Of a stretch of DNA of 35,061 nucleotides, positions 740-35,061 are shown piece by piece. The stretch comes from a virus. Position 1 is the stretch's first letter; each line of letters opens with the position of its first letter. The notes under the pieces are model-generated. The model saw only the letters and a program-made list of their open reading frames with translations. It was not told the origin of the DNA and ran no database searches. The translations under genes and the position numbers were made by a program. The stretch covers positions 1 through 35,061 of IMG/VR virus record IMGVR_UViG_3300029188_000076; one strand, written 5' to 3'.

Positions 740-740
740 A

Positions 741-992
741 ATGGAATTAAATGAAACTGTAAAAATGATGGAGAGCACAGATTATAAAGAAAGATTCAAG
801 ACAGAATACTACCAAACAAAAATCCGGTATGACAAATTACACCAGATGCTTATTAAATATGAAGCAGGAACACTTGATTTTACTCCAACTTGTGATATTG
901 AAATATTAGAAAGGCAAGCAAGGTACATGGGGAATTATCTTAAATGCTTGGAGATAAGAGCAGAAATCGAAAAAATAAAACTGGAGGTATAA
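741..992 (+). CDS. Small helical protein, resembles the crAss001_48-related family
   Basis: The internal ATG at 741 is preceded by aaggagg (725-731). The sequence KERFKTEYYQTKIRYDKLHQML...ILERQARYMGNYLKCLEIRAEIE fits the two-helix pattern of that family, recalled from memory. Confidence 0.55.
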   Translation: MELNETVKMMESTDYKERFKTEYYQTKIRYDKLHQMLIKYEAGTLDFTPTCDIEILERQARYMGNYLKCLEIRAEIEKIKLEV

Positions 993-2373: not shown

Positions 2374-2396
2374 ACGGCAGACAAACGGCAAAAATT
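2374..2396 (+). repeat. CGGCAGA / CGGCAAAAATT motifs (second set of candidate arm-type sites)
   Basis: acggcagacaaacggcaaaaatt. The exact 12-mer copy abuts the integrase stop codon. Confidence 0.4.
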
Positions 2397-6260: not shown

Positions 6261-6893
6261 TCACAGTTTTCTTCTGATTTCAACCACTTTACCTAAAATG
6301 GAAACTGGAAATTCTTGGCATTCTTTTTTTGTATATGTCATTGGCGTATAAACAGCTGGATTCCATCCAATTAAAGTAAGACCGTTTTCTGATTTACTGA
6401 CTTGCTTGACTGTAGCATCATTTCCGTTGACCAAGACTACTGCTACATCACCGCTGTCTACATCTGCTTGACGGCGGACAATGACGACATCCCCATCAAG
6501 CATGTGGGGTTCCATGGATTTTCCGGCTATTTTCAGCGCAAAGTATTCGCCCATCTGGGTCATGTTTTGTGGAATTTCCTCCCAGTCTTCAATATCGGTA
6601 ATAGCTTCAATCGGAATCCCCGCTGCCACTCTGCCGAGGACAGGGATACGCACGCCTTTGGCAAGGGAAGATTGTTTATCAGTTTTATCTTCTATAAGAT
6701 CAGATTTTTCTATATGAAAAATAGTAGCAAGTTTTTCTACTGTATTCATTCTTGGATAACGGGTACCGCTTAGCCAGGAAGAAATGACGGATTTATTTAC
6801 TTGCATTCTGGTTGCTAAATCAACTTGATTCATTTGAAAGACATCCATATATCTCTTTAGATTCTTAATAAAAATTAGTCTATATTTATCCAT
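6261..6893 (-). CDS. LexA/CI-like prophage repressor (XRE HTH plus S24 self-cleaving peptidase)
   Basis: The N-terminal HTH is MNQVDLATRMQVNKSVISSWLSG. The candidate cleavage site is RVAAGIP (Ala-Gly), with catalytic Ser in AGKSMEP and Lys in ATVKQV. RBS is aaggagg. Confidence 0.92.
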   Translation of the reverse strand: MDKYRLIFIKNLKRYMDVFQMNQVDLATRMQVNKSVISSWLSGTRYPRMNTVEKLATIFHIEKSDLIEDKTDKQSSLAKGVRIPVLGRVAAGIPIEAITDIEDWEEIPQNMTQMGEYFALKIAGKSMEPHMLDGDVVIVRRQADVDSGDVAVVLVNGNDATVKQVSKSENGLTLIGWNPAVYTPMTYTKKECQEFPVSILGKVVEIRRKL

Positions 6894-17064: not shown

Positions 17065-17255
17065 TGAGCGACAGAGCGCTTAGAGATTACGCTTATAGAG
17101 TGCTCAAATCAGAGTACGGTGAACATATGGAGAACGGGATTTTAATTCCGGCAAAGAAAAGCGATGAAGAGCTGGCGGCGTTCGCAGCGCAGATGCCAGA
17201 ATGGCAGCTTAGGCAGATGTATGGAATGATGTTTGAAGGAGAACTTGTCGAATGA
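17064..17255 (+). CDS. Hypothetical protein (63 aa)
   Basis: The ATG overlaps the terL stop (TAATG). It lies between terL and the portal gene. Confidence 0.5.
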   Translation: MSDRALRDYAYRVLKSEYGEHMENGILIPAKKSDEELAAFAAQMPEWQLRQMYGMMFEGELVE

Positions 17256-19213
17256 GTTTTGATTTATCTGAAGCGCGGAATAATGTAAAAAAGGCACTGC
17301 AGCTAACCAGTGAATGGCGCAAAAGCGCGAAAGAAGATTATGATTTCATGCGCGGTAAACAGTGGACAGACGCGGATTTGAAAGTAATGAAACAGAAATC
17401 TCGTCCGGTCATTACAATTAACCGGATACGTCCGGTTATTAATCTTCTTTCCGGCTATGCAGCGCAGAATGAAACGGAGCCGGATTTTCTGCCGCGCTCG
17501 GAAGAAGATGACCGGGTAGCACGTGTGGCCAAGGGTATTACAAAGTACACTTTTGACAAGACGAATTATCAGAGCGTTAAGAAAAAAGCGTTCAAAGACG
17601 CGGTGATATGCGGTGTCGGAAATTACTGGGTCAGTTATGAATTTGATTACGCCCGGATGGATGGTCGGATACAGATCAAAAACGTCAGCCCGTTCGATGT
17701 ATTTGTGGATCCGGAGTGCAAAGAAGATGATTTGTCCGATGCTTTTTACTGCGGCCGGTATAGTTGGGAAAATCCGGAGAAGTTAAAACAGGTTTATCCG
17801 GATAAAGCGGATGAAATCACCATGATTGCGCACAAGTACGACGACAGCGAATTGGAAACGGTTAATACGGAGCCGCTCTGGTATTCGCGGGATTTAAAGA
17901 AATTAAGGGTCGTTCAATATTGGTACAAAGAGTACACGCGGAAGAAAATTTTCTCTGCAGATGGAATGATCGTCGATGAATCGCAGCCGGATTTATATTC
18001 GGCTTTTTTAATGTCCGGAGCGGAACCGGAAGAAATCTCGGTTACGAAAATCAGATATGCGACGTTTTGTGGAGAAGTGCTGCTTGAAGATGGCGAAAGT
18101 CCATACAAACACAATCAATTCCCACTTGTGCGGCAGTATTGCTACTTATCCGGTTACGGCGAGGACTTAGATGACGGATTGGAACCGGCGGGCATTGTGC
18201 GGGATCTAAAAGACGCACAGCGCGAACTCAACAAGAACCGCAGTCAGCGCATGCATATCGTCAATCAGCAGTCGCTCGGTGTCCGGTTCTGGACTGGACC
18301 GCAGTTTGATGAAAAAGAAAAACGGGAAATTCGGAATCTGTCTACAACGCCGGGCGCTAATATTTTCTTAAAGCCGGGCGTGACATTTACCGATGGGCTT
18401 CCATCGGCACAATCCGTCAATAATATAGAACTCGAAAACCGCTCAAGCAGTGATTTCTACACGATTTCAGGCATTACTCCGGAGAGCCTGTCCGGCAGTA
18501 TTGGGGCGATGAGCGGCAAGGCAATTGATCTTCGTCAGTCGGTTACCACGGTGCAGACGGCTGAAATATTCGATAAAGCCAAAGAGGCGGAACTGCAGAT
18601 TGTAAAACTCTTATGGGGAGACACCTACGCACCGGGATTGATTCCGCAGTTTTATAACAAAGACAAGGTTATGCGGATCCTCGGCGAAGACGGCAAAAAA
18701 GAGTTTGTGCGGATACAGCCGGGGTTAGGTCAAGCCATTCAGGAACAGCAAGCGGTAGATCAGAACGGTATGCTAGTAACAGATGAAAACGGCGACCCGG
18801 TTATGAAAGTACTGTATGATTTGTCCGCTTTTGATTTCGACATTGTGATCACAACATCGCAGGCAAGCGCTACCGCACGGCGGGCGAATCTGTATCAGCT
18901 GCTTGAAGCAAAGAAAGCGGGCGTCGATATTCCGATGGATATTATTCTTGATTTCATGGATTTCCCGGAAAAGGAAACTGTCAAGAAGCGTATGCAGCAG
19001 GCTTCCGAACAGCCGAAAATGCCGGACTTTAAAGTCAACGCAAGTATTGAGGATTTACCGGCGGAAGCACTGTCAACGGCGCTGCAGTCTATCGGCGTGA
19101 ATATTCCGCCGCAGCAGATTATGCAGGAAAGATTAGCACTGAAAGGGCGTGCAATCGCTCCGCCGGTGCAACCGCAAATTCCGATACAACAACCACAGCT
19201 ATTAGGGCAGTAA
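17252..19213 (+). CDS. Portal protein
   Basis: 653 aa, directly after the terminase. The N-terminal pattern is WRKSAKEDYDFMRGKQWTDADLK...SRPVITINRIRPVINLLSGY. Confidence 0.8.
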   Translation: MSFDLSEARNNVKKALQLTSEWRKSAKEDYDFMRGKQWTDADLKVMKQKSRPVITINRIRPVINLLSGYAAQNETEPDFLPRSEEDDRVARVAKGITKYTFDKTNYQSVKKKAFKDAVICGVGNYWVSYEFDYARMDGRIQIKNVSPFDVFVDPECKEDDLSDAFYCGRYSWENPEKLKQVYPDKADEITMIAHKYDDSELETVNTEPLWYSRDLKKLRVVQYWYKEYTRKKIFSADGMIVDESQPDLYSAFLMSGAEPEEISVTKIRYATFCGEVLLEDGESPYKHNQFPLVRQYCYLSGYGEDLDDGLEPAGIVRDLKDAQRELNKNRSQRMHIVNQQSLGVRFWTGPQFDEKEKREIRNLSTTPGANIFLKPGVTFTDGLPSAQSVNNIELENRSSSDFYTISGITPESLSGSIGAMSGKAIDLRQSVTTVQTAEIFDKAKEAELQIVKLLWGDTYAPGLIPQFYNKDKVMRILGEDGKKEFVRIQPGLGQAIQEQQAVDQNGMLVTDENGDPVMKVLYDLSAFDFDIVITTSQASATARRANLYQLLEAKKAGVDIPMDIILDFMDFPEKETVKKRMQQASEQPKMPDFKVNASIEDLPAEALSTALQSIGVNIPPQQIMQERLALKGRAIAPPVQPQIPIQQPQLLGQ

Positions 19214-19337
19214 TGCCTTGATATATCGTCCTAAGCAACGACGTTAAAAGGCTTTTTTCTTTCGTCCGAAAAGAGACGGTAAACTACAAAAAATCATTCG
19301 ACCGCCGACGTCGTTAAACCGGCAGAAGGAGATAATT

Positions 19338-20246
19338 ATGGAGAATGAAGCAATGCTTAACGCAGAAGATTTAGGGTTTGATGCAGAAGATTTGAAAGAG
19401 GCAGGTCTTGATAATCAGGAACCGGCAACTCCGGCGGGTAAAGCACCGGCAAAAGAACCAGAAGACAATCTGGCAGGTGGGCAGACGAAAACTGAACCTA
19501 ATCCAGAATCGGAACCTAAAATGGAAGTCGAACCAAAAGAACCGGAAGACAATCCGGCAGGTGGCGATTTAAAGAAAGCGCTGGCAGAAGAACGGGCTCG
19601 CAGGAAAGCGGCCGAAGAAGCGGCTAATACTTTGCGTTCACAGATGAGCATGTCACAGAAACCGGTATTATCTCCGGAAGATTTGAATCAAATTAAGAGT
19701 TATGCGCAGCAGGAAGCCGCACGTCGGCTCAAGATTGACGACGCGTCTGATTTGATGTTTACAGATGCACAAAAGTATCAGGAACTGCTTCATGAACAGG
19801 CACGGATTGAATATCAGATGACGCGCCAGCAAGAAGAGGCACAGGCTGTATATCAGCAAAATGTAGCGTTTATTGGAGAGCTTAGGGCTATTCCGAATAT
19901 CAGCGAATTATGGCAGAAAGGCGCTGAAATGCTGGACGGCATGACGCGAAAAGACGCCGCCCCGATTGATGCAGCATTTGCGCGACTGGATCAGGGGATA
20001 GGTACGAGTGAAGATTTCAAAATTATTCGTGATTTCGCCGAAAAGGTAAAATCGTCGATGACTGCGCCTGCACAAAATCCGCTCGAAACGGCTAAAACAC
20101 TGCCGAAAGCAAGCGCGTTAAACGGCGGCGCTCCGACCGGCGCGAAACTGTCTGAGGAAGAAATCCTCAAGTATGTAGAAGAAGGTCGTGAAAACGAGCT
20201 TCCGGCGGAAATTAGAAAGCAGATTGATGACCTCTGCGGTGATTAA
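19338..20246 (+). CDS. Scaffolding protein
   Basis: Located between the portal and capsid genes. It is acidic and helical and contains an internal KEPEDN(L/P)AGG duplication (19452-19480 and 19536-19564). Confidence 0.65.
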   Translation: MENEAMLNAEDLGFDAEDLKEAGLDNQEPATPAGKAPAKEPEDNLAGGQTKTEPNPESEPKMEVEPKEPEDNPAGGDLKKALAEERARRKAAEEAANTLRSQMSMSQKPVLSPEDLNQIKSYAQQEAARRLKIDDASDLMFTDAQKYQELLHEQARIEYQMTRQQEEAQAVYQQNVAFIGELRAIPNISELWQKGAEMLDGMTRKDAAPIDAAFARLDQGIGTSEDFKIIRDFAEKVKSSMTAPAQNPLETAKTLPKASALNGGAPTGAKLSEEEILKYVEEGRENELPAEIRKQIDDLCGD

Positions 20247-20272
20247 TTATTTTACAAAAAGGAGAATGAAAT

Positions 20273-21241
20273 ATGGCAAACGAATTTAAAATTCCTGTAA
20301 ATTTAGTTCCCAAGATCTGGACGAAAAAGGTATGGAAGGAAGGCTTGAAAGCTTCTTATTTTGATAAGTTTACATCAACCAGCGGGGACAATGTCGTTCA
20401 TGCGAATAAAGATCTTAAGAATGCTAAGGGTGATAAGGTTTATTTCGGGTTGATGATGAACCTGAAGGGAGCTGGTGTAACTGGCAACAATACACTCAAG
20501 GGCAACGAAGAGGAGCTTAAGGTGTATGATTTCGGCGTAGATACGACGCTTATCAGAAATGCGGTAAAACGTTTTGAAGCGGATGATCAGAAATCCCCTT
20601 ATGCAAACCTGCCGATGATTAAGAGTGCACTTACGCAGTGGCTTTCTGACTGGAAAGATAATTCTCTTATAAAGTCTTTGACGGTTAACCCCACAGCTGG
20701 CGAACGTCTTATCGCGTCTACGGCGGGAACAGAGGTTTCTTTGACGGCTAATGACAAGCTGACTTGTGCTGTGATCAGCCGTGCGAAACGGAAAGCGATG
20801 ATGCATGAGCCGAAGGTGAAACCGATTAAAGTTGACGGGCAGGAGAAATACATCATGCTTGTCGGCACGTGGGCAGCGCGTGACTTGAAAGCAGATCCGG
20901 TATGGCAGGCGGCACAGCAGAACGCGGCAATCCGCGGCAGCAAAAACCCGATTTTCACCGGAGCGCTCGGCGAATATGACGGCGTCGTTCTGTATGAATA
21001 TGAACGTGTCATGAACACGACCACGGGTGCGTCTTCTGCAAACGTTGTTCACAATTTGCTTTTAGGGCAGCAGGCGGCATGCTTCGCTGTGGCTCGTGAA
21101 GCACGTTTCATCCACGATGAGGACGATTACGGCAACTTGCAGGGGAGCGGTATCGCGTTCTACGGCGGCATTGTCAAGTCAATCTACAACAGCAAAGATT
21201 ATGGCGTGATTCAGGTCATGACCGGCGGTGCTGTAGAGTAA
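20273..21241 (+). CDS. Major capsid protein (N4-gp56-type, HK97 fold)
   Basis: 322 aa. The pattern is KIWTKKVWKEGLKASYFDKF...KGDKVYFGLMMNLKGAGVTGNNTLKGNEEEL. A strong terminator follows. Confidence 0.85.
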   Translation: MANEFKIPVNLVPKIWTKKVWKEGLKASYFDKFTSTSGDNVVHANKDLKNAKGDKVYFGLMMNLKGAGVTGNNTLKGNEEELKVYDFGVDTTLIRNAVKRFEADDQKSPYANLPMIKSALTQWLSDWKDNSLIKSLTVNPTAGERLIASTAGTEVSLTANDKLTCAVISRAKRKAMMHEPKVKPIKVDGQEKYIMLVGTWAARDLKADPVWQAAQQNAAIRGSKNPIFTGALGEYDGVVLYEYERVMNTTTGASSANVVHNLLLGQQAACFAVAREARFIHDEDDYGNLQGSGIAFYGGIVKSIYNSKDYGVIQVMTGGAVE

Positions 21242-23719: not shown

Positions 23720-24880
23720 ATGCCTTATACGGAAAAATATCCTTTGAACCCGACGCCGCAAGGAGACAGCACGAAAGAAGCTGTACTAAAGAATAGGGAA
23801 GAAATCAAGACGATTGGGGATGCGCTTTCCGCACGGTCGAAAAGTGGTGGGAGCGGTCTTCGGCAGCGCATTTTATACGGGAAAAACAGCGGCGGGAAGT
23901 ATAGCTTCCTTTCCGGCGATGGATTGTCGGTCATTATTGACGGAAGTACAATACCTGTTGTTTTAACGCTGGCAGACGGCTTTAATGAAAACGGCGCGAA
24001 AGATTATGTAGAAAGAATTGATAAGAAAATCAGTGCATGGACGTTGCCGATTAATACAACAAGCTATCTGTTTGTAGAACGAAATAACGCAAGTGCTTTG
24101 TCTTACGGGAGCGCAACAACAAAACCGGTATTTTCTGCTTCTTTGCCATCCGGCATTGCCACAAACACTCATGTTTTCAACACACTTGAGCAGAAGATGT
24201 ATTACTACAATGGTACAGAATGGAAAGCAGTCGTAAGAGTTTTTGTTGCAGTGGTAACGACGAATGCAACCAGCGTAACAAAGATTGAATATATGAATAA
24301 TGCGGCAGCGGTAGAAATGACGGATGCTGAAAAAGAAAAGCTGTCCGGTATTGAAGACAAAGCAGAAGTTAATCAAAACGCATTTTCTAAAGTAAAAATT
24401 GGTGACAAAGAACTTGTTGCGGCTGTGAAACAGGCTGTGCTTGGATTAATCGCAGGTGACAACATAGAATTTACTGTAGATTCCAAAGAAAAGAATATAA
24501 CGATTAGTGTTAAGGGCTCTGTTCCGAATGCTGATAAAGCAGATAAGGATGCCACCGGAAATAATATCGAAAACACGTATATGAAAAAATCGGGTGGCAC
24601 GATGACTGGGGCGCTTGTATACAAAAATCCTTCTTCTTTTTTAAATGGGCGAACAAGAGCAGTTATTCAGACACGACGTGACGACATACAAGCGTATCAG
24701 GCATGTACAAGCATGAAAACACCTCAGGGAACGTGGGTGTTAGGAACATATGACACCGAAGCGCTCTTTTTTACCTATATAGCTGATACAGCTACAACAG
24801 ATCAGGAAGCACAACACTTTCAAATAACCCCCGATGGTCATATCATATTCCCGAATAAGGCTGAGTTTTGGATAGAGTGA
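23720..24880 (+). CDS. Tail fibre / receptor-binding protein
   Basis: The fibre repeat is DAEKEKLSGIEDKAEVNQNAF, and KKSGGTMTGALVY is a motif typical of phage tail fibres. Confidence 0.75.
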   Translation: MPYTEKYPLNPTPQGDSTKEAVLKNREEIKTIGDALSARSKSGGSGLRQRILYGKNSGGKYSFLSGDGLSVIIDGSTIPVVLTLADGFNENGAKDYVERIDKKISAWTLPINTTSYLFVERNNASALSYGSATTKPVFSASLPSGIATNTHVFNTLEQKMYYYNGTEWKAVVRVFVAVVTTNATSVTKIEYMNNAAAVEMTDAEKEKLSGIEDKAEVNQNAFSKVKIGDKELVAAVKQAVLGLIAGDNIEFTVDSKEKNITISVKGSVPNADKADKDATGNNIENTYMKKSGGTMTGALVYKNPSSFLNGRTRAVIQTRRDDIQAYQACTSMKTPQGTWVLGTYDTEALFFTYIADTATTDQEAQHFQITPDGHIIFPNKAEFWIE

Positions 24881-24890
24881 GGATAGCGAA

Positions 24891-25724
24891 ATGGGTCTTT
24901 CAGTTTTAAAAATGTACTGCAAGAAGGGCAACACTACATATCCTGTTGACCTATATACGTCATCACAAGAGACAGGAATGCAAACAAATCTCTGTAAAAA
25001 AATAGTCACAGGAACACAGTCAGAGTTTTTTCGTTTAAGTACTTGCTTACAAAACGGGGCCGCGGGCGGTGATACACCAATGCGTGTCAAGTTAAATAAT
25101 AACGTCTATAAGGTTACACAGCATGGGGAATTTAAAATTACAATAACGCCTTCTGAAAATCAAACAATTACATGTACTGCTAATGGGATAACGTGGACAA
25201 GCGGCACAAAGTGGTTCCCTTATGGCACAAAATGGACAGCAAAAGTAGAAGGGATATCCGGTTATAATCCTGGCACGCTTAGTGCGACATCGGGAACATT
25301 GATTAACAATGATGTCACACTATCTGCTACCCCGGCTACACTTGCGGAGCTTCGGTTTGAGCCGTATCCATCGGGGGTTTATCCAAATGGATCTCGGGAA
25401 ACTTCGTGGGTTTGCCCTGATGGTATAACAAGGATAGAGCTGGACGGGAACAGAAATAAACCGCATTATATTGATGTCGTTCCCGGGCGTGAGTATAAAA
25501 TCTCTGTGAGCGAGGGGGATCATTGGTATATGTGTTATTACACAGGGGAAACCTGGAAAGAAAAAGTCGGTAAGCGTACATATATACGAAAAGAACAAGA
25601 GTACATCGGTGATGATTATCTTGACGCGAGACTATACATCAGAACCGGTGGTGATTTAATCATCCGTTATAATGTTAAAACAACACAAAAATCGCAATGG
25701 TTGCTTTATACCAATCATAATTAA
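24891..25724 (+). CDS. Hypothetical virion/tail-associated protein (277 aa)
   Basis: ORF with an RBS. It is beta-rich and T/G/N-rich and lies directly after the fibre gene. Confidence 0.45.
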   Translation: MGLSVLKMYCKKGNTTYPVDLYTSSQETGMQTNLCKKIVTGTQSEFFRLSTCLQNGAAGGDTPMRVKLNNNVYKVTQHGEFKITITPSENQTITCTANGITWTSGTKWFPYGTKWTAKVEGISGYNPGTLSATSGTLINNDVTLSATPATLAELRFEPYPSGVYPNGSRETSWVCPDGITRIELDGNRNKPHYIDVVPGREYKISVSEGDHWYMCYYTGETWKEKVGKRTYIRKEQEYIGDDYLDARLYIRTGGDLIIRYNVKTTQKSQWLLYTNHN

Positions 25725-25734
25725 AGGACGCAAT

Positions 25735-26136
25735 ATGCACTTATCAAACCTGAAAGAAATGATAAAAGACTATGAACGCATTACGGGGGAATCTATTAGT
25801 TTTGATGGGTTCTTTTTTGATGATGATTTTCATGATAAACATGGAACTCATTTCAAATTTTTCCCGAATATAGGATTTCTTTTCTGGCAGTTGATAAAAC
25901 ATGAAGGTGTAATTTATTTCCAGATTCTTGAAACGTACGGCAGATTTCATAAAATGACCGATTATATCCGAGAGGTGATGATACTTAATGACGTGAAAGA
26001 TATTGTGACAATGACGACACGCAATCCGAAAGGACATATCAGGCGATGGAAAATGGTACACCATCCGGAACATGATTATGATTACGAAGGACGTCATTAC
26101 TATGTGCTGACCGGCACAATTGAAAATTTACATTAG
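25735..26136 (+). CDS. Hypothetical protein (133 aa), AT-rich
   Basis: ATG after aaagga. No recognisable motif. Confidence 0.45.
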   Translation: MHLSNLKEMIKDYERITGESISFDGFFFDDDFHDKHGTHFKFFPNIGFLFWQLIKHEGVIYFQILETYGRFHKMTDYIREVMILNDVKDIVTMTTRNPKGHIRRWKMVHHPEHDYDYEGRHYYVLTGTIENLH

Positions 26137-26148
26137 AAAGGAGATTGC

Positions 26149-27786
26149 ATGCTTTTATTTGATTTACAGCTTTTCGGGAAAAAGGGAACAAAGATAACAA
26201 CTACGGATCCACAGGTTCCCAAAATGTCCGATGAGGAAAAGGGGTTACTCGGCGAGCAGCTAAAATGGGCACAGACCACACAGCCGGTGGCACAGAATTT
26301 ACTCAACATGGCAAATCAGGCTTTAAGCAGCCAGCAGGTCACGCCGAATCCGAACTGGCAGACGCTGTATGACCGGGCGCAGAACCAGACAACTGCTAAC
26401 AATCAGTTGGTGCAGGGACTGATTCCTCAAGTGAACGCAAATACAGACGCCAACGCGGCAGCTAATAATCGTTTCTCGGGCTTACTTGGGAATGCGATTC
26501 AGTCGATGTCGCAGGGAAACAAAGAATTGGCGTCTGAGTATAACGCGGCCATGCAGAACAATAATACTGCTATGCAAGGCCTGTTGAATGGCGTGCTGCC
26601 GTCTTCTTATTCAGAAAACCGGCAGAAGGCCTTGCAAAGTGATTTGACTAATACGGTCGGAAATACATTGTCTGGGCTGGCCAGCAGGGGAATTATCAAT
26701 TCTTCACAGGCGGACAGTGCATTCAATGACATTTCACGCAACGCGTCCAACACTTTGGCAGCACAGTATGGGAATGATATGCAGACGGCCGCGGGGTTGG
26801 CAGGGCAGGCATATCACAATCAGCTTGCAGGAATCAATGGTAAGGCTGGTCTTTTAGGTGATATGTTCAAAAACCAGCTTTCCGGCTACGGACAGCAATC
26901 TGATTTGAGCAACACAAATTTCAATAACAGAATGCAGGGGCTGTCTACTTTATCACAGCTGGCGAACCAGTCACAACAGATGGCTATGGATCCGATTCAG
27001 ACGGCGGCAACGGCACAGGAAGCGGCTATCAATACGCCAATGAAGTACTTGGCTATGGCCACGGGGCAAAATGCACCGACGCAAGGATTATTATCTCAAT
27101 TATCACAACAACGTTACAGTGTAGCCACCCCGGGACAGACAATTGTCCGGCAGGGGAGTGGCGGATTTTTTGGAGGTCTTATGAGCGGATTAGGAAGTTA
27201 TTTAGCATGCTTTGTAGCCGGAACAGAAATTTCAACGCCGGAAGGTGCAGTTGCTATCGAACGGATGACGTTTGGTGATCAGGTTATTTCTCTTGGCGCA
27301 GTGAATGAGGTACAAGAACTTCATGATATGGGTGAAGCGGATATTTATGAACTCAATACTCCGTCTTTTGCAGTAGAAACCACGCAAACGGAAGTATTCA
27401 TGACGCCTGATGGAAATAAACATTTATCCGAACTTTCCGATGGTGACAGTGTCATGACGGTAAACGGATTCGAGCCGATTACAGCAATTATTGCTACCGG
27501 TAAAAAAGAAAAGGTTTATGAATTGGAGTTGACCGGAGATAACATGTTCTATGCAAACGGCATTCTTGCAGAAGGGTTGACGGAAGCTGACAAGACAGCA
27601 AATGAACCGGATGGAGACATTATCCCTGCAGAGGCGGTTAACGTTGTTTCTGTAAAGGAACCGACAGAAGAGCCTGCTTCGGAGAAAGAACAACCTGCAG
27701 AAACAAAGAATGAAACAGAGAAAAAGTCGGCAGCTAAAAAAACGGCAACAAGAAGAAAGACGGTTACTAAGAAAGCGGGTAAATAA
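26149..27786 (+). CDS. Q/N-rich ejection/internal virion protein with L27-like N-terminal leader and C-terminal Hint domain plus basic tail
   Basis: The N-terminus is MLLFDLQLFGKKG. The Hint module runs from CFVAGTEISTPEG to MFYANGILAEG. The tail is KKSAAKKTATRRKTVTKKAGK. Confidence 0.65.
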   Translation: MLLFDLQLFGKKGTKITTTDPQVPKMSDEEKGLLGEQLKWAQTTQPVAQNLLNMANQALSSQQVTPNPNWQTLYDRAQNQTTANNQLVQGLIPQVNANTDANAAANNRFSGLLGNAIQSMSQGNKELASEYNAAMQNNNTAMQGLLNGVLPSSYSENRQKALQSDLTNTVGNTLSGLASRGIINSSQADSAFNDISRNASNTLAAQYGNDMQTAAGLAGQAYHNQLAGINGKAGLLGDMFKNQLSGYGQQSDLSNTNFNNRMQGLSTLSQLANQSQQMAMDPIQTAATAQEAAINTPMKYLAMATGQNAPTQGLLSQLSQQRYSVATPGQTIVRQGSGGFFGGLMSGLGSYLACFVAGTEISTPEGAVAIERMTFGDQVISLGAVNEVQELHDMGEADIYELNTPSFAVETTQTEVFMTPDGNKHLSELSDGDSVMTVNGFEPITAIIATGKKEKVYELELTGDNMFYANGILAEGLTEADKTANEPDGDIIPAEAVNVVSVKEPTEEPASEKEQPAETKNETEKKSAAKKTATRRKTVTKKAGK

Positions 27787-29068: not shown

Positions 29069-32000
29069 ATGGGTTATTTTGATGAATTTCAGCGCGCTGG
29101 CGGTAATACTGGCGGTGAAAGATATTTTGATGAATTCAAGAATCAGCCGCCGCAGGATTCGTCTTTGCTTGATAAGGCCAAAGGCTTTTTAAATAGCATA
29201 GATGAATCCTATGAAGAAGGGCGTGCGGCACGCAAAGCACAATGGGAGAAGACGAAAGCCAATGTGCTGAACACTCTTTCTGACTACGCGGCTAATGCCG
29301 GCAAAGCCATAGAAAATTATGGCAATGAAATTACAGCGGCCGGAGAGCGTGCTTTTGCGGCATATAAAAACGGGGAATCAATCAATATGGAAGACCCGAC
29401 ACAAGGCTTTGAGGGCGAAAATTATAACCGGGCGAAAATGAATGTCTACAATGAACTGGTAGGCAAACCTGCCGGATACGCCGCCATCACACCCGGTATG
29501 CCCGGCATTGTCCGCATGGCAGGCGGTGCTTTAGCTGTCCCGACTCTTGTCGATTCTACGATGCAGACTTATGACCAGAACATTGCAAACGATGATGGCA
29601 CGCCTGTTATCAGCACGGCAAAAGGGGCTCTTTTGGATCCGGTCATTAATCCCGTTAAAGAGGCGGTTACTAATCCCGGAGAATATGTACAGAGCCTTGT
29701 TGATAATCCGCTTGAAGCGTGGGATAAAGTATTCTTGCCGGGGGCTATTATTCACGGAGCGGCCAAAGGCATAAAAAAAGCAACGCCTAAAAGTATCAGC
29801 GAGCCTATCCGCGAACATATAACGGAACCGTTTAATGAACATGTTATTGATCCGGTAAAGAACGGCCTTGCTAATGCGAAAGGTCGTTTTTTTGATTCTT
29901 TTAAACGTGGCGGAGAAACAGGTTTTGACGATTTAGTCCGTGATACAGAGATGGGTACACAGGCACTTAAAGAAACAAACCTGCCGCCTGAATACGGTGA
30001 AACGGGAGATATAAAAACAGATGTTTATAACCGTCTCCGTCAGAATGGATTTACCGATTCCGAAGCGGCAGGGATTACCGGAAATATTGCGCAGGAATCC
30101 ATGTTTGATACAGAAGCGCTTTCAAAAGATGGATATAATTCCCACGGGCTGGTGCAGTGGACAGGCGATAGAAAGGCACATTTAGAGCAATTTGCCCGGG
30201 AAAACGGACTGGATCCCAAAGATTGGCGTACACAGGTAGATTTTATCTCCGAAGAGATGAATACTACAGAACGGGCGGCTTTTGAAGCACTCCGCAAAAA
30301 TCCGAATATCACTCCGGAAGAAGCGGCGCATATTGTCCGCGAACAGTATGAACGTCCGGATCCGGCAGTGGCCAATGACGCATACCGCCAGCAGGTGGCC
30401 AGAGAAGTCTATGATGGCCGCAGTGTCCGTCCGATGCAGCGTCCCATGCAGAACGGGCTCAATGATTTTGCGGAAGATGTGAAACAAGCCGCGCCGGAAG
30501 AAGCAAATTTAAATTTCATGAAGGATCCGGTGAAAGATATTACTCCGGAAGAATTATCCGATCATATCAAAAATGGAACTATTCCTAAGGAAGTATTCCG
30601 TACATATGACGAAACGGAATATAGCGCATTCAAAGATTTACCGGAAAAACAGAAGTTTGAATATGCACGTCAGGAAACGCTTAAACTTGCTGACGGAATA
30701 GACGATCCGATGGGAGAAAAAGTAAGAGTTATTTTTGACAAAGAAAACAAAAATGCAGTAGATGACGCAGTTAAAGCTTTTACTTCCGGACATGGCGAGA
30801 ATATGTCTATTTCTGACAGCCGGGCATTTGCAACCGGGTTGATAAAAGATACTGTTCAAAATCCGGATTTTATTCTTAAGCAAAAGAACGGAAGAAAACT
30901 CTATGTGAATCTATGGCGCGGGAAAGATAATTTGTTACATCAAATAGCGGTCAGCATGGATAAAACCGATAAAGGGAAAATTATCTCTTCAAGTACGGCT
31001 ATGGATAAGCCAAGACATCGCAACAATGCTATTAATCAGCTTTCAAGGGATATAAAAAACGCCGACGAATTAATTTACGTCGGCGAAAATATTCGAGGTC
31101 GTCAGTCAGGGTATCCTCTGCAACCCTCCAGTGATAGGGGTTCAACGCCGGATACCCAGCTCCACCCATCTGGCAACTCTATTGTAGCAGAAGAAGTAGG
31201 AAAAGTAAAATTGCCGGGTGATGAACGATCATTTATGGCAAGACCGCTTGAGGAGGCGGCCGGTAATGACTTGACCACATGGCAGGGAGAGACGATTTCA
31301 CGCAAACAAATTCTTGATGATGTAAATAGTATTTTCGGCGCTACTATCAAGAAGGGGCGTGTCGGCAAGAAGGGCACTAACGGCTGGTATAACCCTAAAA
31401 CGGACATTATACGAACAAGAACATTCGGGGATCCTCGAACTGTTATGCATGAACTTGGCCACTATGTGGATGCAAGGTTTAAATTCAGCAATCGTCCCGG
31501 TTTTGATACGGAATTTTCTAATGTTATCCATAAACGTTTCGGAAATGCCTACAATAAGGGCGGTATAAAAACCATCCGAAAGGAAGGGATTGCTGAATTT
31601 TTCCATGATTACGTCACAAGCAGAAAGAAAGCAGCTGCTGAATTCCCGACGTTTTACAAAGAATTTAAGCAGATACTGGAAGGTGATAAAGAACTGCATG
31701 CGGCAGTAGATAAATTGTCTTATGTCGGTCATCAGTGGTATGCGCAGCCGGTCTGGGAACAGATGAAAGGGTCTGTTTCTTTTGGCGGTAAAGAAAATCT
31801 GCTGCAGAAAACGATAAAATTCTTCAAGGATTCTAAGGAAGTCGCGCGGAAAGTTTATCATGAACCGTATACTACACTGGTGGATGAGCTTCATCCGTTA
31901 GAAGAACTTATCATTGAAGTGGAAAAACGCGCAGGAAGAAAGTTAAGAGTAGAAGAAAACGCATTTAAGCAGGCGTGGCTTGCGCGCGGATGGGCAGGCA

Positions 32001-34222
32001 AAGCAGAAGCACTTCTGCAGAATGGTTCGCCCAAGCATAAAATACCTGCTTTTAAGGATATTATCCGAAAAATCCCGGATAATCAGCTGAAAGATTTTTC
32101 TACATATCTGACCGCATTACGCGAATTGGATATGAACCACTGGAATACATTCTTACCGCGAGATGAAACACCACTGATTACGAGATTTACAAAATCAGAA
32201 TGTTTTGACGTCATCAAGCATTATGAGAGGAATCCTGTTTTTGCGAAAGCTGCTGCGGAAATCCACAGATATAATGATTTCCTGCTTGCAAATGCTGTAG
32301 ATGCCGGTATGTTATCGGTAAAGGCCGCAATGGCTATGAAGAATAAATATCCGCATTATGTACCTTTCTTCCGTGAATTTTATGAAGCTGCAGAAGCACA
32401 AAGAAATGGAACAGGAAAAGGATTTGCCAATGTGGGGGCTGTCACAAAGAAAATGCGCGGCAGCACTTTGGACGTGGTAGACCCATTGGAAGGAATAATC
32501 CGGAATACTTTCTCAATAATGAGCGCCATCGAACGGAATAAAGTCGGGCAGTCTATTGTAAAACTGGCGAATGTCGACGGTATGGGAGCATTGATTGAAA
32601 AAGTGTCCGGTGCTGCAAAAGTAACGGATCATAGTTTCAGCGTTTGGGAAAACGGAAAGAAAGTCGTTTACAACACAACGCCTGAGTTGTATCAGGCATT
32701 TAAAATGCTGAACCCAGAAGGCGCGAACATGTTTACAAAGCTTCTTTCTTATCCGGCAAAATGGCTCCGTGCCGGGGCGACGCTGGGGCCGGAATTTATT
32801 CTGCGTAACCCCGTACGCGACATGATTTCCGCTACGATCTACTCTAAGCACGGATTTATCCCGGTGGTGGATACCCTTAAAGGGTTAGGGCTGTATCTGC
32901 AGAAAGGTGAAACTTACTGGGAATACATGCGATCAGGCGCGGCACAGGCTAATCTTGTTTCTCTTGATAGGAATTACCTTTCCGGACAGATGAGAGACTT
33001 GTTGCAGCGGCCAAGCGTCAAAAAGATGGTAACCACAAATCCTATTGAAATACTGCGCGGACTGTCCGAAGCCACAGAAATGGCTACACGCTTGGCGGAA
33101 TTTCATAATGTCCGGAAAGGGTATACAGGTATCGGAAATCGGCTGTTCAGCAGAAAGCGAAATCCGGGCAGTATTCAAGAAGCGGCGCTTGAAAGTCGTG
33201 ATGTGACGCTGGACTTTTCACGAATAGGTTCTCATACAAAATCACTGAATAAGACGATTGCATTTTTCAATGCAGCCATTCAGGGGACGGATAAGATGTT
33301 CCGCGAATGGAAAGCTAATCCACTGGATATGACGGTAAAAACGGCTATGTGGATTACCTTGCCGTCAGTCCTGCTCTGGGAACTCAACAAGGACGATCCA
33401 CGGTATCAGGAGTTACCACAATGGCAGAAAGATATTTTCTGGATTATCCCTACGAAAGACATTCTGATTAAAATTCCCAAACCCTTTGAACTGGGAATTC
33501 TTTTTGGAACGGTACCGGAACGCATGCTGCAGTGGGATTATGACAAAAAAAGGAAACAAAAGGGAGCGGGATTCAAAGGCCTTGCCGGCTCTGTACTTGA
33601 TTCTATGGCTCCATCATTCCTGCCGACTGCATTAGTGCCGGCTATTGAAGCAATGACCAATCATTCCATCTTTATGGGGCGCGATATCGTACCGCAAAGC
33701 CAGCAGAATACAATCCCTGAACTGCAGTATGGCCCTTACACATCGGCAGTCGGCAGAAAGATTGGCGAAACGTTCGGTATTTCTCCCCGCAAGGTAGATA
33801 ATACCATTCGCGGATACGGCGGCAGCCTTGCCGGGCTGGGGTTGACGTTTACAGACGGAATGGTCGGACTGGATGAAACACGTCCGGCAAAGAGATGGAC
33901 GGAACAGCCGGGGATTCGTGGATTTACTGCCACACCTTATTCCAGCAGTGAAAGCGTGCAGGAAGTTTATGATGCATATGATAGGCAGTTGAAACTGTTC
34001 AATGCAGGACGGGAACTGCATAAGCAGATGGACGGATTCGATCCGCGAGAGTTTGAACAGATGAAGAATGCAGTGAAAGCTTTTCAGAATATTAATCAAG
34101 CAAAAAAGGCAGTCATGAAAAGTAATTTATCCAGTGAAGCTAAACGAAAGAGGCTGGATGAAATACAAATGTCGCAAGTCCGAATTGCAAGAAAAGCATT
34201 AGGAAAGGAGAGTATTAAATAA
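29069..34222 (+). CDS. Polyvalent virion protein (1717 aa): lysozyme-like murein hydrolase domain, HExxH metallopeptidase-like motif, large conserved C-terminal region
   Basis: The lysozyme-like domain (about nt 30020-30365) reads GFTDSEAAGITGNIAQESMFDTEALSKDGYNSHGLVQWTGDRK...EQYERP. HELGH is at nt 31448-31462. About 770 aa of C-terminal region (nt 31900-34222) has unknown function. Confidence 0.75.
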   Translation: MGYFDEFQRAGGNTGGERYFDEFKNQPPQDSSLLDKAKGFLNSIDESYEEGRAARKAQWEKTKANVLNTLSDYAANAGKAIENYGNEITAAGERAFAAYKNGESINMEDPTQGFEGENYNRAKMNVYNELVGKPAGYAAITPGMPGIVRMAGGALAVPTLVDSTMQTYDQNIANDDGTPVISTAKGALLDPVINPVKEAVTNPGEYVQSLVDNPLEAWDKVFLPGAIIHGAAKGIKKATPKSISEPIREHITEPFNEHVIDPVKNGLANAKGRFFDSFKRGGETGFDDLVRDTEMGTQALKETNLPPEYGETGDIKTDVYNRLRQNGFTDSEAAGITGNIAQESMFDTEALSKDGYNSHGLVQWTGDRKAHLEQFARENGLDPKDWRTQVDFISEEMNTTERAAFEALRKNPNITPEEAAHIVREQYERPDPAVANDAYRQQVAREVYDGRSVRPMQRPMQNGLNDFAEDVKQAAPEEANLNFMKDPVKDITPEELSDHIKNGTIPKEVFRTYDETEYSAFKDLPEKQKFEYARQETLKLADGIDDPMGEKVRVIFDKENKNAVDDAVKAFTSGHGENMSISDSRAFATGLIKDTVQNPDFILKQKNGRKLYVNLWRGKDNLLHQIAVSMDKTDKGKIISSSTAMDKPRHRNNAINQLSRDIKNADELIYVGENIRGRQSGYPLQPSSDRGSTPDTQLHPSGNSIVAEEVGKVKLPGDERSFMARPLEEAAGNDLTTWQGETISRKQILDDVNSIFGATIKKGRVGKKGTNGWYNPKTDIIRTRTFGDPRTVMHELGHYVDARFKFSNRPGFDTEFSNVIHKRFGNAYNKGGIKTIRKEGIAEFFHDYVTSRKKAAAEFPTFYKEFKQILEGDKELHAAVDKLSYVGHQWYAQPVWEQMKGSVSFGGKENLLQKTIKFFKDSKEVARKVYHEPYTTLVDELHPLEELIIEVEKRAGRKLRVEENAFKQAWLARGWAGKAEALLQNGSPKHKIPAFKDIIRKIPDNQLKDFSTYLTALRELDMNHWNTFLPRDETPLITRFTKSECFDVIKHYERNPVFAKAAAEIHRYNDFLLANAVDAGMLSVKAAMAMKNKYPHYVPFFREFYEAAEAQRNGTGKGFANVGAVTKKMRGSTLDVVDPLEGIIRNTFSIMSAIERNKVGQSIVKLANVDGMGALIEKVSGAAKVTDHSFSVWENGKKVVYNTTPELYQAFKMLNPEGANMFTKLLSYPAKWLRAGATLGPEFILRNPVRDMISATIYSKHGFIPVVDTLKGLGLYLQKGETYWEYMRSGAAQANLVSLDRNYLSGQMRDLLQRPSVKKMVTTNPIEILRGLSEATEMATRLAEFHNVRKGYTGIGNRLFSRKRNPGSIQEAALESRDVTLDFSRIGSHTKSLNKTIAFFNAAIQGTDKMFREWKANPLDMTVKTAMWITLPSVLLWELNKDDPRYQELPQWQKDIFWIIPTKDILIKIPKPFELGILFGTVPERMLQWDYDKKRKQKGAGFKGLAGSVLDSMAPSFLPTALVPAIEAMTNHSIFMGRDIVPQSQQNTIPELQYGPYTSAVGRKIGETFGISPRKVDNTIRGYGGSLAGLGLTFTDGMVGLDETRPAKRWTEQPGIRGFTATPYSSSESVQEVYDAYDRQLKLFNAGRELHKQMDGFDPREFEQMKNAVKAFQNINQAKKAVMKSNLSSEAKRKRLDEIQMSQVRIARKALGKESIK

Positions 34223-34548: not shown

Positions 34549-34875
34549 ATGATGGATAAAATTAAAGGACTATGGACGCGATATGTTCCGCGTATTTCAA
34601 GACGTGCGAACACATCTTTAAAAGTGGTTTATCTTTACGGAGCCGGACTTCTGATTCTGTTTTTTATGGTAATCGCGGCATGGATACATGATTTTTACCG
34701 AACAGGCACAGCTAATACGGCACAGTTGATTACATTTTTCAAAGAGTATGCAGCTCCGGCAGTAGTCGGGGCTGTTACTTTTATATCAGTTTTTTCAGTG
34801 AATAAAAATCGGAATGGTGATTCCGACGCAGCGGAGAAAGGAGCGGCAAACAATGAAGGGAATAGACGTATCTGA
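34549..34875 (+). CDS. Putative holin (two TM helices)
   Basis: The TM helices are VVYLYGAGLLILFFMVIAAWI and AAPAVVGAVTFISVFSV, followed by a charged C-terminus. It overlaps the endolysin start by 23 nt. Confidence 0.55.
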   Translation: MMDKIKGLWTRYVPRISRRANTSLKVVYLYGAGLLILFFMVIAAWIHDFYRTGTANTAQLITFFKEYAAPAVVGAVTFISVFSVNKNRNGDSDAAEKGAANNEGNRRI

Positions 34876-35061
34876 AAATAATGGAGTGGTAGACTGGGGC
34901 GCTGTAAAAGCGGCAGGTTTTGAATTTGCCATCATCCGCATCGGCTATGGTAAAGGACACTTAGACAGCCAGTTTTACGATAATGTGAATGGCGCTTTAA
35001 AAGCAGGGCTGAAAATCGGCATTTATCATTATTCTTATGCATTATCTGACGATGTGGCAGG
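34853..35061 (+). CDS. GH25 muramidase endolysin, 5' portion (continues at base 100 of the window after collapsing the overlap)
   Basis: MKGIDVSENNGVVDWGAVKAAGFEFAIIRIGYG is the canonical GH25 N-terminus. The frame runs off the window end. Confidence 0.9.
   Translation, partial: MKGIDVSENNGVVDWGAVKAAGFEFAIIRIGYGKGHLDSQFYDNVNGALKAGLKIGIYHYSYALSDDVA
34963..35061. repeat. Terminal direct repeat copy 2 (identical to 1..99)
   Basis: Exact 99-nt identity with the window start. Confidence 0.95.

What the first reader, a model, noticed from the sequence alone, without database searches (positions are those of the whole stretch)
26149..26187. Ribosomal protein L27-type leader (MLLFDLQLF/GKKG) on an ejection protein: predicted cleavage by the host Prp protease
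Seen in sequence: the 545-aa protein starts MLLFDLQLFGKKGTK.

Established knowledge: in Firmicutes and a few other phyla, L27 is made with an N-terminal extension (B. subtilis MLRLDLQFFASKKG, as I recall it). The Prp cysteine protease removes it after the Phe-Phe. Staphylococcal phage 80alpha capsid and scaffold carry the same motif and are cut by host Prp.

Inference: this virion protein is matured by host Prp, cutting between F9 and G10. That points to a Firmicute-type host. Here the motif is not on the capsid or scaffold (their N-termini lack it) but on a putative ejection protein, which is unusual.
Basis: partly seen in the sequence, partly recalled or inferred. Interest (0 to 1): 0.6.

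Follow-up and report, generated by a model that had tools for sequence, protein, structure and literature searches.

The report
Host L27 leader on phage protein
A gut-bacterial virus has put the exact nine-residue "cut here" tag of its host's ribosomal protein L27 on one of its internal virion proteins, so the host's own ribosome-maturation protease (Prp) very probably trims it; this extends a trick known from a staphylococcal phage but is not a new principle.

Summary
ORF 26149-27786 (545 aa, good RBS) starts MLLFDLQLF|GKKG. This is the only such motif in all six frames of a complete 34,962-bp circular temperate P22-like podophage.

- **Host:** Dialister (Negativicutes, a diderm Firmicute).
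- **Host L27:** Dialister invisus, D. hominis and CAG L27 start MLLFDLQLF|AHKKG. That is 9/9 identical to the phage leader, yet all four Leu codons differ.
- **Host protease:** a Prp gene (PF04327) sits between rplU and rpmA.
- **Phage protease:** the phage encodes no Prp or head protease.
- **Family pattern:** among 150 distant representatives, 76 carry an L27-like leader, 28 a different leader, and 22 start with Met exactly at the predicted F|G cut. This mirrors long versus short L27.
- **Exclusivity:** in 79 related viral loci (1.4 Mb) this gene is the only ORF with the leader.

Caveats:
- P1' is Gly, not the Ala/Ser of known substrates.
- Cleavage is not demonstrated.
- "Ejection protein" rests on synteny only.

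The protein also has an intact but splice-incompetent Hint domain. Verdict: new member of a known kind, moderate interest.

The parts
26136..26143 (+). Ribosome-binding site GAAAGGAG, 5 nt before the ATG
   Evidence: Conserved in related prophages.
26149..26175 (+). Leader / predicted pro-peptide M1-F9 (MLLFDLQLF). Predicted Prp cut after F9, between nt 26175 and 26176.
   Evidence: 9/9 identical to the Dialister L27 N-terminus. Matches the published P-side motif (PMC9405229). Lies in a disordered N-terminus, pLDDT below 50.
26176..26187 (+). P1'-P4' GKKG, the predicted new N-terminus. It resembles the mature L27 start A(H/S)KKG but has Gly at P1'.
   Evidence: 22/150 distant homologues begin M-G-(G/K)-K-G at exactly this point. 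P1' is G in 64/76 and K in 10/76 leader-bearing representatives.
26230..27123 (+). Long alpha-helical (coiled-coil-like) body, aa 28-325, with the family-conserved RG(V/I)xNSS motif
   Evidence: AF2 model, pLDDT up to 94. Family consensus. Only generic coiled-coil fold matches.
27154..27207 (+). Gly-rich hydrophobic stretch GSGGFFGGLMSGLGSYLA immediately before the Hint Cys
   Evidence: Low confidence in the model. The GGGxxxGLxGGLG consensus is conserved.
27208..27576 (+). Hint / intein-like domain, aa 354-476. It starts CFVAGT and ends ANGILAEG.
   Evidence: Pfam Hint_2, E 2.6e-10. pLDDT 95-98. Foldseek to the gp41-1 mini-intein (TMt 0.91) and BIL domains.
27577..27786 (+). Disordered Lys/Glu/Ala/Thr-rich C-terminal tail (aa 477-545) plus the stop codon
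27789..29057 (+). Second gene of the putative ejection/internal-protein trio (422 aa). No family assignment, no leader.
   Evidence: Conserved synteny in prophages.
29069..34222 (+). Third gene of the trio (1717 aa): polyvalent protein with Phage_lysozyme2 and LPD38 domains. No leader.
17252..21241 (+). P22-like portal (17252-19213), scaffold-position gene (19338-20246) and major capsid protein (20273-21241). None has the leader, and no head protease lies between them.

Best explanation
The first nine residues (MLLFDLQLF) are a removable pro-peptide that copies the pro-peptide of the host's ribosomal protein bL27. The host is Dialister, a diderm Firmicute. Its cysteine protease Prp normally cuts pre-L27 after the same nine residues (MLLFDLQLF|AHKKG). 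Prp is therefore predicted to cut the phage protein between F9 and G10 in the cytoplasm of the producing cell, before or during its incorporation into the procapsid. This would leave a protein that starts GKKG.

The phage supplies no protease of its own. The substrate is an internal, probably ejected, virion protein of a temperate P22-like podophage. It consists of a helical body, a Gly-rich hydrophobic segment, a Hint domain and a basic tail.

Shown here:
- the sequence identity with host L27;
- the presence of host Prp next to L27;
- the absence of a phage protease;
- family-wide conservation of the leader;
- exact coincidence of the predicted cut site with the start of leaderless homologues.

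Inferred:
- that Prp actually cuts;
- when it cuts;
- that the leader's role is to keep the protein inactive or assembly-competent until then;
- that the protein is packaged and ejected.
For: - **Motif fit.** It matches MLxx(D/N)LQ(F/L)F' (PMC9405229).
- **Host.** A syntenic prophage sits in a Dialister MAG. Other prophage copies are flanked by bacterial genes, including a TonB-dependent receptor and RND components, i.e. a diderm host.
- **Identical host leader.** The L27 sequence starting MLLFDLQLFAHKKG is named Dialister by an exact look-up: BBK24999.1, CDA46996.1, CDD81359.1, and D. invisus EEW96200.1. Other Negativicutes differ at positions 2-3: Veillonella MFTF, Megasphaera MFKF, Megamonas MFNF, D. 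pneumosintes MLQFN.
- **Host Prp.** In locus L119 the order is rplU, a 108-aa PF04327 Prp (E 1.1e-19, with GHA and CAA motifs; identical to Dialister sp. CAG:357 CDD81358.1), then rpmA.
- **Selection on the peptide.** Phage and host encode the leader with different codons: all four Leu codons differ and 18-21/27 nt are identical. The identity is therefore maintained at the protein level, not by recent DNA capture.
- **No phage protease.** The complete circular phage genome has no Prp or prohead protease (Pfam scans; Prp HMM against 411 six-frame segments, best E 2.2).
- **Family pattern.** Of 150 representatives at 50% clustering, 76 have an L27-like leader and 22 have none and begin M-G-(G/K)-K-G exactly at the predicted P1'. 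28 have a different leader ending ...HF|KGG. Sequences are alignable from the junction onward.
- **Variants track L27 variants.** The phage leader variant MLQFDLQLF and the DLQRF variants both have L27 counterparts: L036, L071, L076, P0400-P0402, P0418, P0428.
- **Accessibility.** The leader lies in a disordered N-terminus.
- **Precedent.** 80alpha capsid and scaffold proteins are cut by host Prp, and the motif has been noted on other phage proteins (PMC5744158).
Against: - No experimental evidence of cleavage exists for this protein or any relative.
- P1' is Gly. Across the family it is Gly or Lys, whereas all documented or proposed Prp substrates have Ala or Ser there. Lys at P1' in 10/76 relatives sits badly with the reported steric limit at P1' (PMC9405229).
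- Prps are narrowly specific: C. difficile Prp does not cut the S. aureus substrate (PMC9261936). Motif similarity alone is therefore not proof, although here the P-side is identical to the cognate host substrate.
- In 80alpha, cleavage is dispensable for viability (PMC5744158), so the biological importance may be small.
- Host assignment of this exact phage is at genus level, through relatives.
Confidence: 0.72

Rival explanations
1. The leader binds Prp (or the machinery that handles pre-L27) but is not removed. It would act as an assembly or chaperoning tag, or be kept in the virion and cut only after ejection into the next host cell, as a host-triggered switch.
For: - P1' is systematically Gly or Lys rather than the Ala of L27, which could slow or block hydrolysis.
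- In 80alpha the scaffold leader is needed for assembly but its cleavage is not (PMC5744158).
- If the protein is ejected, it meets Prp again in the next cell.
Against: - 22/150 homologues lack the leader entirely and start at the junction, so the body works without it. This is the pattern expected of a removed pro-peptide.
- Gly is smaller than Ala and fits the stated size limit at P1' (PMC9405229).
- The protein is made in a Prp-containing cytoplasm with a disordered, exposed N-terminus.
Confidence: 0.14
2. The leader is a pro-peptide or packaging signal handled by something other than Prp (another host protease, or a phage factor). The resemblance to L27 would be convergent, or a relic of an old gene fusion.
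For: - A second leader class (...HCHF|KGG, 28/150) in the same family clearly needs a different recognition system.
- 23/76 leaders have Arg at P2, outside the published motif.
Against: - The leader is 9/9 identical to the cognate host L27 leader, including host-specific positions 2-4, despite different codons.
- L27s with DLQRF also exist.
- Prp is the only factor known to recognise this sequence.
- No phage protease is found.
Confidence: 0.1
3. Chance resemblance or a mis-called start: the nine residues are not translated or carry no function.
For: None beyond the shortness of the motif.
Against: - The ATG is the first start after a stop and has a strong RBS.
- The motif is unique in six frames.
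- It is conserved down to about 25-30% identity in 76/150 representatives.
- It is the only N-terminal hit in 1.42 Mb of related phage DNA.
Confidence: 0.02

Closest known systems
Staphylococcus phage 80alpha major capsid protein (gp47) and scaffolding protein (gp46), cut by host Prp (Wall et al. 2015; PMC5744158, PMC9405229)
   Same: - A phage virion-assembly protein carries an N-terminal copy of the host pre-L27 leader.
- The phage encodes no head protease.
- The cut is predicted after the aromatic residue of ...LQxF.
- The host is a Firmicute with the rplU-prp-rpmA arrangement.
   Different: - The substrate here is neither capsid nor scaffold. It is an internal, ejection-type protein of a P22-like podovirus.
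- The leader starts at Met1 with the same length as the host L27 leader and is 9/9 identical to it. The 80alpha leaders are longer and only similar.
- P1' is Gly, not Ala.
- The host is a diderm Firmicute (Negativicutes).
- Nothing is experimentally shown.
Ribosomal protein bL27 pro-peptide / Prp (MEROPS C108) system of Firmicutes, Fusobacteria and others
   Same: - The nine N-terminal residues are identical to Dialister pre-L27.
- The predicted new N-terminus GKKG resembles AHKKG.
- The long-versus-short dichotomy of L27 (MLxxDLQLF|AHKKG versus M-AHKKG) is reproduced in the phage family (leader class versus M-GKKG class).
   Different: - There is no homology beyond the leader.
- P1' is Gly and the His/Ser at P2' is missing.
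- The biological purpose cannot be protection of the peptidyl-transferase centre.
Motif noted on other phage proteins: capsid protein of phage 80, major tail protein of phi13 (PMC5744158); proposed FlhB substrates (PMC9405229)
   Same: These show that the L27-type leader has been grafted onto non-homologous proteins of large self-assembling machines.
   Different: - Those cases are single observations in staphylococcal siphoviruses or in flagella.
- Here it is a large metagenomic family in which about half of the representatives carry the leader.
Podovirus ejection proteins (P22 gp7/gp20/gp16; T7 gp14/gp15/gp16; PMC8954989)
   Same: - Three consecutive genes lie after the tail genes of a P22-like module.
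- The last is very large and carries a cell-wall hydrolase.
- The host is diderm, the envelope type for which such proteins are described.
   Different: - No detectable sequence or fold similarity to any characterised ejection protein.
- A Hint domain is present.
- The reviews consulted do not report an N-terminal pro-peptide for P22 or T7 ejection proteins.
Bacterial intein-like (BIL) / Hint_2 domains
   Same: Intein fold with a conserved first Cys.
   Different: - It lacks the C-terminal His-Asn plus nucleophile, and the block-B His.
- It therefore cannot splice.
- It sits inside a phage virion protein.

Membership tests
Prp (C108) substrates with an L27-type N-terminal pro-peptide | Short extension at the extreme N-terminus (about 8-14 residues from Met1) | tested here: met
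   9 residues from Met1. It is the first start after a stop and has an RBS.
Prp (C108) substrates with an L27-type N-terminal pro-peptide | P-side consensus MLxx(D/N)LQ(F/L)F, with Gln at P3 essential (PMC9405229, PMC9261936) | tested here: met
   MLLFDLQLF fits all positions and is identical to Dialister pre-L27.
Prp (C108) substrates with an L27-type N-terminal pro-peptide | Small residue (Ala/Ser) at P1', followed by (S/H)KK | tested here: inconclusive
   P1' is Gly, followed by KKG. Gly is within the steric limit, but no documented substrate has it. Family P1' is G in 64/76 and K in 10/76.
Prp (C108) substrates with an L27-type N-terminal pro-peptide | The host encodes Prp and an extended L27 | tested here: met
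   The Dialister rplU-prp-rpmA locus L119 has PF04327 at E 1.1e-19. Exact matches are named Dialister.
Prp (C108) substrates with an L27-type N-terminal pro-peptide | Demonstrated cleavage by Prp at the F|X bond | not testable with these tools
   Needs virion N-terminal mapping or a cleavage assay.
Podovirus ejection / internal virion proteins | Encoded in a run of about three genes after the tail genes of the structural module, next to a large protein with a cell-wall hydrolase | tested here: met
   The order is terL, P22-like portal, scaffold, MCP, tail genes, then the 545-, 422- and 1717-aa genes (the last with lysozyme + LPD38), then lysis genes.
Podovirus ejection / internal virion proteins | Sequence or structural homology to a characterised ejection protein | tested here: not met
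   No Pfam or PHROG functional hit. No tblastn hit in 50,697 phage records. The helical part gives only generic coiled-coil matches.
Podovirus ejection / internal virion proteins | Present inside the capsid and released on infection | not testable with these tools
   Needs virion proteomics or cryo-EM.
Hint / intein superfamily | Hint fold | tested here: met
   Hint_2 at E 2.6e-10. pLDDT 95-98. TMt 0.91 to the gp41-1 intein.
Hint / intein superfamily | N-terminal nucleophile (Cys/Ser) at position 1 of the domain | tested here: met
   C354 in CFVAGT. CFxxGT is the family consensus.
Hint / intein superfamily | Splicing-competent C-terminus (His-Asn plus downstream Cys/Ser/Thr) and block-B TxxH | tested here: not met
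   The domain ends ...ANGILAEG|L, and the block-B region reads TTQTE (comparison with the gp41-1 sequence is from my own knowledge).

The most novel reading that the evidence does not exclude
This family of podovirus internal proteins may be matured at both ends by borrowed and built-in chemistry, with an exchangeable N-terminal pro-peptide keyed to whatever protease the host offers. The L27/Prp leader would be used in Negativicutes and other Prp-bearing hosts. A distinct ...HCHF|KGG leader would serve an unknown protease elsewhere, and some members have no leader. At the C-terminal end, the degenerate Hint domain would use its conserved Cys to cleave, or form a thioester, at the Gly-rich hydrophobic segment. 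As in Hedgehog, that could covalently attach the helical body to a lipid or another envelope component during genome ejection. Leader type would then be a sequence-readable marker of host phylum for uncultured phages.
Probability: 0.15. Interest if true: 0.8.

Novelty: new member of a known kind. Interest (0 to 1): 0.5.

Why it matters
- **Wider reach of a known mechanism.** Host-Prp processing of phage virion proteins would extend from one staphylococcal siphovirus system to abundant human-gut and oral Negativicutes podophages, and to a new substrate class (an internal, ejection-type protein).
- **A natural data set for Prp specificity.** The family offers hundreds of leader variants, apparently tracking host L27 variants. 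Prp is being pursued as a narrow-spectrum antibiotic target.
- **Simple tests.** The predictions are easy to test: the N-terminus of the virion protein, and cleavage by recombinant Dialister Prp.
- **Host prediction.** The leader may help assign hosts to uncultured phages. MLLFDLQLF is the Dialister type, MFTFDLQLF the Veillonella type and MFKFDLQLF the Megasphaera type.
- **Limit.** It does not change the principle, which is established.

Tried and rejected
- **Cultured phages.** tblastn of the protein and of two distant relatives against 50,697 phage records found nothing. No cultured phage with proteomics could be used.
- **First attempt at the host L27.** A chimeric 51-aa L27 query returned only unnamed metagenomic L27 fragments.
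- **P0182 lead.** I followed the L27 starting MFVFDLQLF (P0182) to locus L012. It showed an L21-Prp-L27 operon, but the taxon is unknown and GC is 48%, so I dropped it.
- **Prophage names.** The exact look-up of prophage proteins gave only 'Hint [Caudoviricetes sp.]' and no host name.
- **Host of the MLQFDLQLF phage variant.** The contigs of P0055 show no host flank within 10 kb, so co-variation between phage and host leaders remains suggestive only. The same holds for the group-2 phages (L169-L214).
- **Dialister Prp against PDB sequences.** phmmer gave no hit at E <= 0.001. Pfam was used instead.
- **Fold searches.** Both PDB and viral searches identified only the Hint domain and generic coiled coils. 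They gave no functional clue for the helical body.
- **Literature.** A string search for DLQLF, NLQLF, NLQFF, DLQFF and DLQRF found only the known Prp papers. Searches for Hint domains in ejection proteins, and for Dialister podophages, found nothing specific.
- **Rejected readings.** I rejected a signal peptide or lipoprotein signal: the stretch is too short and has no basic n-region or lipobox (read directly from the sequence). I also rejected recent capture of the rpmA 5' end, because the codons differ.
Full report
**1. Observation.**

The window carries an ORF at 26149-27786 (+) of 545 codons that begins MLLFDLQLFGKKGTK. The ATG is the first start codon after an in-frame TAG and follows GAAAGGAG by 5 nt. 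The pattern LQ[FLH]F occurs once in all six reading frames of the 35 kb window, at this N-terminus.

The window has a 99-nt terminal direct overlap. It is therefore a circularly assembled, complete genome of 34,962 bp, and the GH25 endolysin gene spans the junction.

It is a temperate phage, with the following genes:
- lysogeny genes: integrase at 2396-3466 (-) and a CI/S24-type repressor at 6261-6893 (-);
- a P22-like structural module: terL, portal (PF16510, E 1e-113), a scaffold-position gene and the major capsid protein;
- tail genes;
- the 545-aa gene, then a 422-aa gene and a 1717-aa polyvalent protein with Phage_lysozyme2 and LPD38;
- holin-like genes and the endolysin.

Capsid and scaffold N-termini lack the motif.

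**2. Fit to the known motif.**

The published L27/Prp motif is MLxx(D/N)LQ(F/L)F'A(S/H)KK (PMC9405229). The phage sequence satisfies every P-side position, including the Gln at P3 whose mutation abolishes cleavage by S. aureus Prp (PMC9261936). It departs at P1' (Gly instead of Ala) and lacks the His/Ser at P2'. The structural work reports a size limit at P1', which small residues satisfy (PMC9405229). Gly is compatible with that limit but is undocumented as a substrate residue.

**3. Host.**

- Close homologues (93-100% identical) lie in prophages inside long bacterial contigs of up to 1.9 Mb. Flanking genes include a TonB-dependent receptor and RND efflux components, which indicate a diderm host.
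- In a scan of species-representative genomes, the only confirmed hit is a syntenic prophage in an uncultured Dialister sp. MAG. The protein there is 73% identical. terL/portal, this gene and the 1717-aa gene are 76-82% identical at the nucleotide level.
- Dialister belongs to Bacillota, class Negativicutes.
- Ejection proteins are described for podoviruses of diderm hosts (PMC8954989), so a diderm Firmicute is a natural place for such a protein to meet Prp.

**4. The host's L27 and Prp.**

Sixteen of them begin MLLFDLQLFAHKKG.

An exact look-up names these sequences as Dialister L27:
- 'bL27 n=3 Tax=Dialister' (BBK24999.1, CDA46996.1, CDD81359.1);
- a second variant that is the D. invisus protein (EEW96200.1).

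The phage leader is therefore 9/9 identical to the pro-peptide of its host genus.

Other named Negativicutes differ at positions 2-5:

| Organism | L27 leader |
|---|---|
| Veillonella parvula | MFTFDLQLF |
| Megasphaera | MFKFDLQLF |
| Megamonas / Selenomonas | MFNFDLQLF |
| D. pneumosintes | MLQFNLQLF |

In locus L119 the L27 gene is preceded by a 108-aa ORF that matches Peptidase_Prp (PF04327, E 1.1e-19). That ORF has the GHA and CAA motifs and is identical to a Dialister sp. CAG:357 protein. It is itself preceded by rplU. This is the canonical operon (PMC12324487).

Phage and host encode the same nine residues with different codons. All four Leu codons differ and 18-21 of 27 nt are identical. 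The identity is thus maintained at the protein level rather than inherited from a recent DNA capture.

**5. No phage protease.**

Pfam scans of 40 ORFs found no Prp and no prohead protease. The only peptidase domain is the S24 domain of the repressor. A Prp HMM built from two Dialister Prps and one other was searched against all 411 stop-to-stop segments of 40 aa or more in the circularised genome. Nothing scored better than E = 2.2.

**6. Family evidence.**

A full HMMER scan with residues 1-350 against 1.84 billion cluster representatives found 189 relatives, and the best 150 were examined. Their N-termini fall into classes:

| Class | Representatives | N-terminus |
|---|---|---|
| A | 76 | L27-like leader of 6-18 residues ending ...(F)(D/N)(L/I)Q(L/R)(F/H) |
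| B | 28 | longer, unrelated leader ending ...(Y/F)F(R/K)x(C/A)HF before KGG |
| C | 22 | no leader: Met placed exactly at the predicted P1 position, then G(G/K)KG |
| Other | 24 | mostly fragments |

Details of class A and the junction:
- 41 of the 76 have the strict (D/N)LQ(F/L)F.
- The residue after the cut is G in 64 and K in 10.
- From the junction onward the sequences align (G-rich, then S/T-rich, then ..P..T..E..L).
- The majority consensus of a 65-sequence alignment begins xxxFDLQxFGG.
- The leader-bearing versus leaderless pattern mirrors long versus short L27 (MLxxDLQLF|AHKKG versus M-AHKKG). I regard this as the strongest evidence that the nine residues are a dispensable, removable module and that F9|G10 is its boundary.
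- Arg at P2 occurs in 23/76 and lies outside the published motif. It does occur in real L27s (P0418 and P0428, MLQFDLQRFAHKKG).

**7. Exclusivity.**

I examined 80 related viral contigs. They form two clades, at 77-95% and 44-48% identity. In 79 of them (one is truncated) the homologue of this gene is the only ORF of 60 aa or more with an N-terminal L27-like leader. Across 1.42 Mb in six frames there are 95 relaxed-motif hits, and 79 are this N-terminus.

The second clade has GC 0.41 and leaders MFTFDLQLF, MFKFDLQLF and MFTFNLQLF. These are the Veillonella- and Megasphaera-type L27 leaders. This suggests that leaders track host L27, but the hosts of that clade were not established.

**8. Architecture.**

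The AlphaFold2 model (mean pLDDT 75) shows five regions:
- a disordered N-terminus, residues 1-27, which contains the leader;
- long helices, residues 28-325 (pLDDT up to 94);
- a low-confidence Gly-rich hydrophobic linker;
- a very confident beta-rich domain, residues 354-476 (pLDDT 95-98);
- a disordered Lys/Glu-rich tail.

Foldseek matches the beta domain to mini-inteins (gp41-1, TMt 0.91) and BIL domains. The helical part gives only generic coiled-coil matches. Assignment as an ejection or internal virion protein therefore rests on gene position and neighbourhood only (PMC8954989).

**9. Mechanism proposed.**

The protein is synthesised late in a Prp-containing cytoplasm with an exposed copy of the host pre-L27 leader. 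Prp cuts after F9, and the mature protein (G10 onward) is incorporated into the procapsid. By analogy with L27 and with the 80alpha scaffold, the leader may keep the protein inert or assembly-competent until that point. This last step is inference. I put the probability that Prp cuts at F9|G10 at about 0.7.

Rival explanations:
- binding without cleavage, or cleavage deferred until ejection into the next cell (about 0.14);
- a different protease or signal (about 0.1);
- chance (about 0.02).

**10. Comparison and novelty.**

Host-Prp processing of phage virion proteins is established for 80alpha capsid and scaffold proteins. The same authors already noted the motif on non-homologous proteins of other staphylococcal phages (PMC5744158).

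New here:
- the substrate class (an internal, ejection-type protein with a Hint domain);
- the host clade (diderm Firmicutes of the human gut);
- the perfect identity to the cognate L27 leader;
- Gly at P1';
- the size and modularity of the family.

I found no mention of this family or its leader in the searchable literature. I classify it as a new member of a known kind, of moderate interest.

Noticed in passing
window 27208-27576 (aa 354-476): Intact Hint / intein-like domain inside the virion protein. The first Cys is conserved (CFVAGT), but the C-terminus is ...ANGILAEG|L rather than His-Asn plus a nucleophile, and the block-B region reads TTQTE. It therefore cannot splice. At most it could cleave, or form a thioester, at G353|C354. 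Many family members carry it.
   Followed up: partly
window 27154-27207 and 27577-27783: A Gly-rich hydrophobic segment (GSGGFFGGLMSGLGSYLA) lies directly before the Hint Cys. A 69-aa disordered Lys/Glu-rich tail follows the domain. If the Hint domain self-cleaves, the helical body would end in a membrane-like glycine-zipper segment.
   Followed up: no
family representatives P0251-P0385 (class B, e.g. P0257, P0258, P0265, P0279, P0290): 28/150 distant homologues carry a different, longer N-terminal leader ending ...(Y/F)F(R/K)x(C/A)HF|KGG in place of the L27-like one. This may be a pro-peptide for another, unidentified protease. The hosts are unknown.
   Followed up: partly
loci L169-L214 (viral contigs, 44-48% identical homologues, GC 0.41): A second phage clade has leaders MFTFDLQLF, MFKFDLQLF and MFTFNLQLF. 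Veillonella parvula L27 starts MFTFDLQLF and Megasphaera L27 starts MFKFDLQLF. This suggests that phage leaders co-vary with host L27 leaders, but the host of this clade is not established.
   Followed up: partly
P0418, P0428 (L27 proteins): Some Negativicutes-type L27s have Arg at P2 (MLQFDLQRF|AHKKG). This is outside the published (F/L) consensus and matches the DLQRF|GG leaders seen in 23/76 phage family members.
   Followed up: no
window 1-99 and 34963-35061; 1-481 and about 34853-35061: A 99-nt terminal direct overlap shows a circular assembly with a true genome length of 34,962 bp. The GH25 endolysin gene is split across the window ends.
   Followed up: yes
window 23720-26136 compared with L001-L010: The genes between the conserved 474-aa tail gene and the 545-aa gene differ among otherwise near-identical prophages (386 aa versus 454 or 466 aa; 277 aa versus 179, 181 or 201 aa; 154 aa versus 133 aa). 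This looks like a swapped receptor-binding cassette.
   Followed up: no
window 29069-34222: The 1717-aa polyvalent protein has Phage_lysozyme2 (aa 317-449), LPD38 (aa 1443-1615) and a weak PBECR2 nuclease-like hit (aa 563-658, E 0.0017, below the Pfam cut-off).
   Followed up: no
window 4980-6242 (-): A 420-aa protein with an Mrr-type restriction-endonuclease catalytic domain (E 5e-7) lies between the BRO-N gene and the repressor in the lysogeny region. It may be a prophage-borne defence gene.
   Followed up: no
window 702-992 (+): A small ORF (96 aa, TTG start) matches Pfam crAss001_48 (E 3e-20), a family named after a crAss-like phage protein. Here it sits in a Negativicutes podophage, next to the lysis region.
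   Followed up: no
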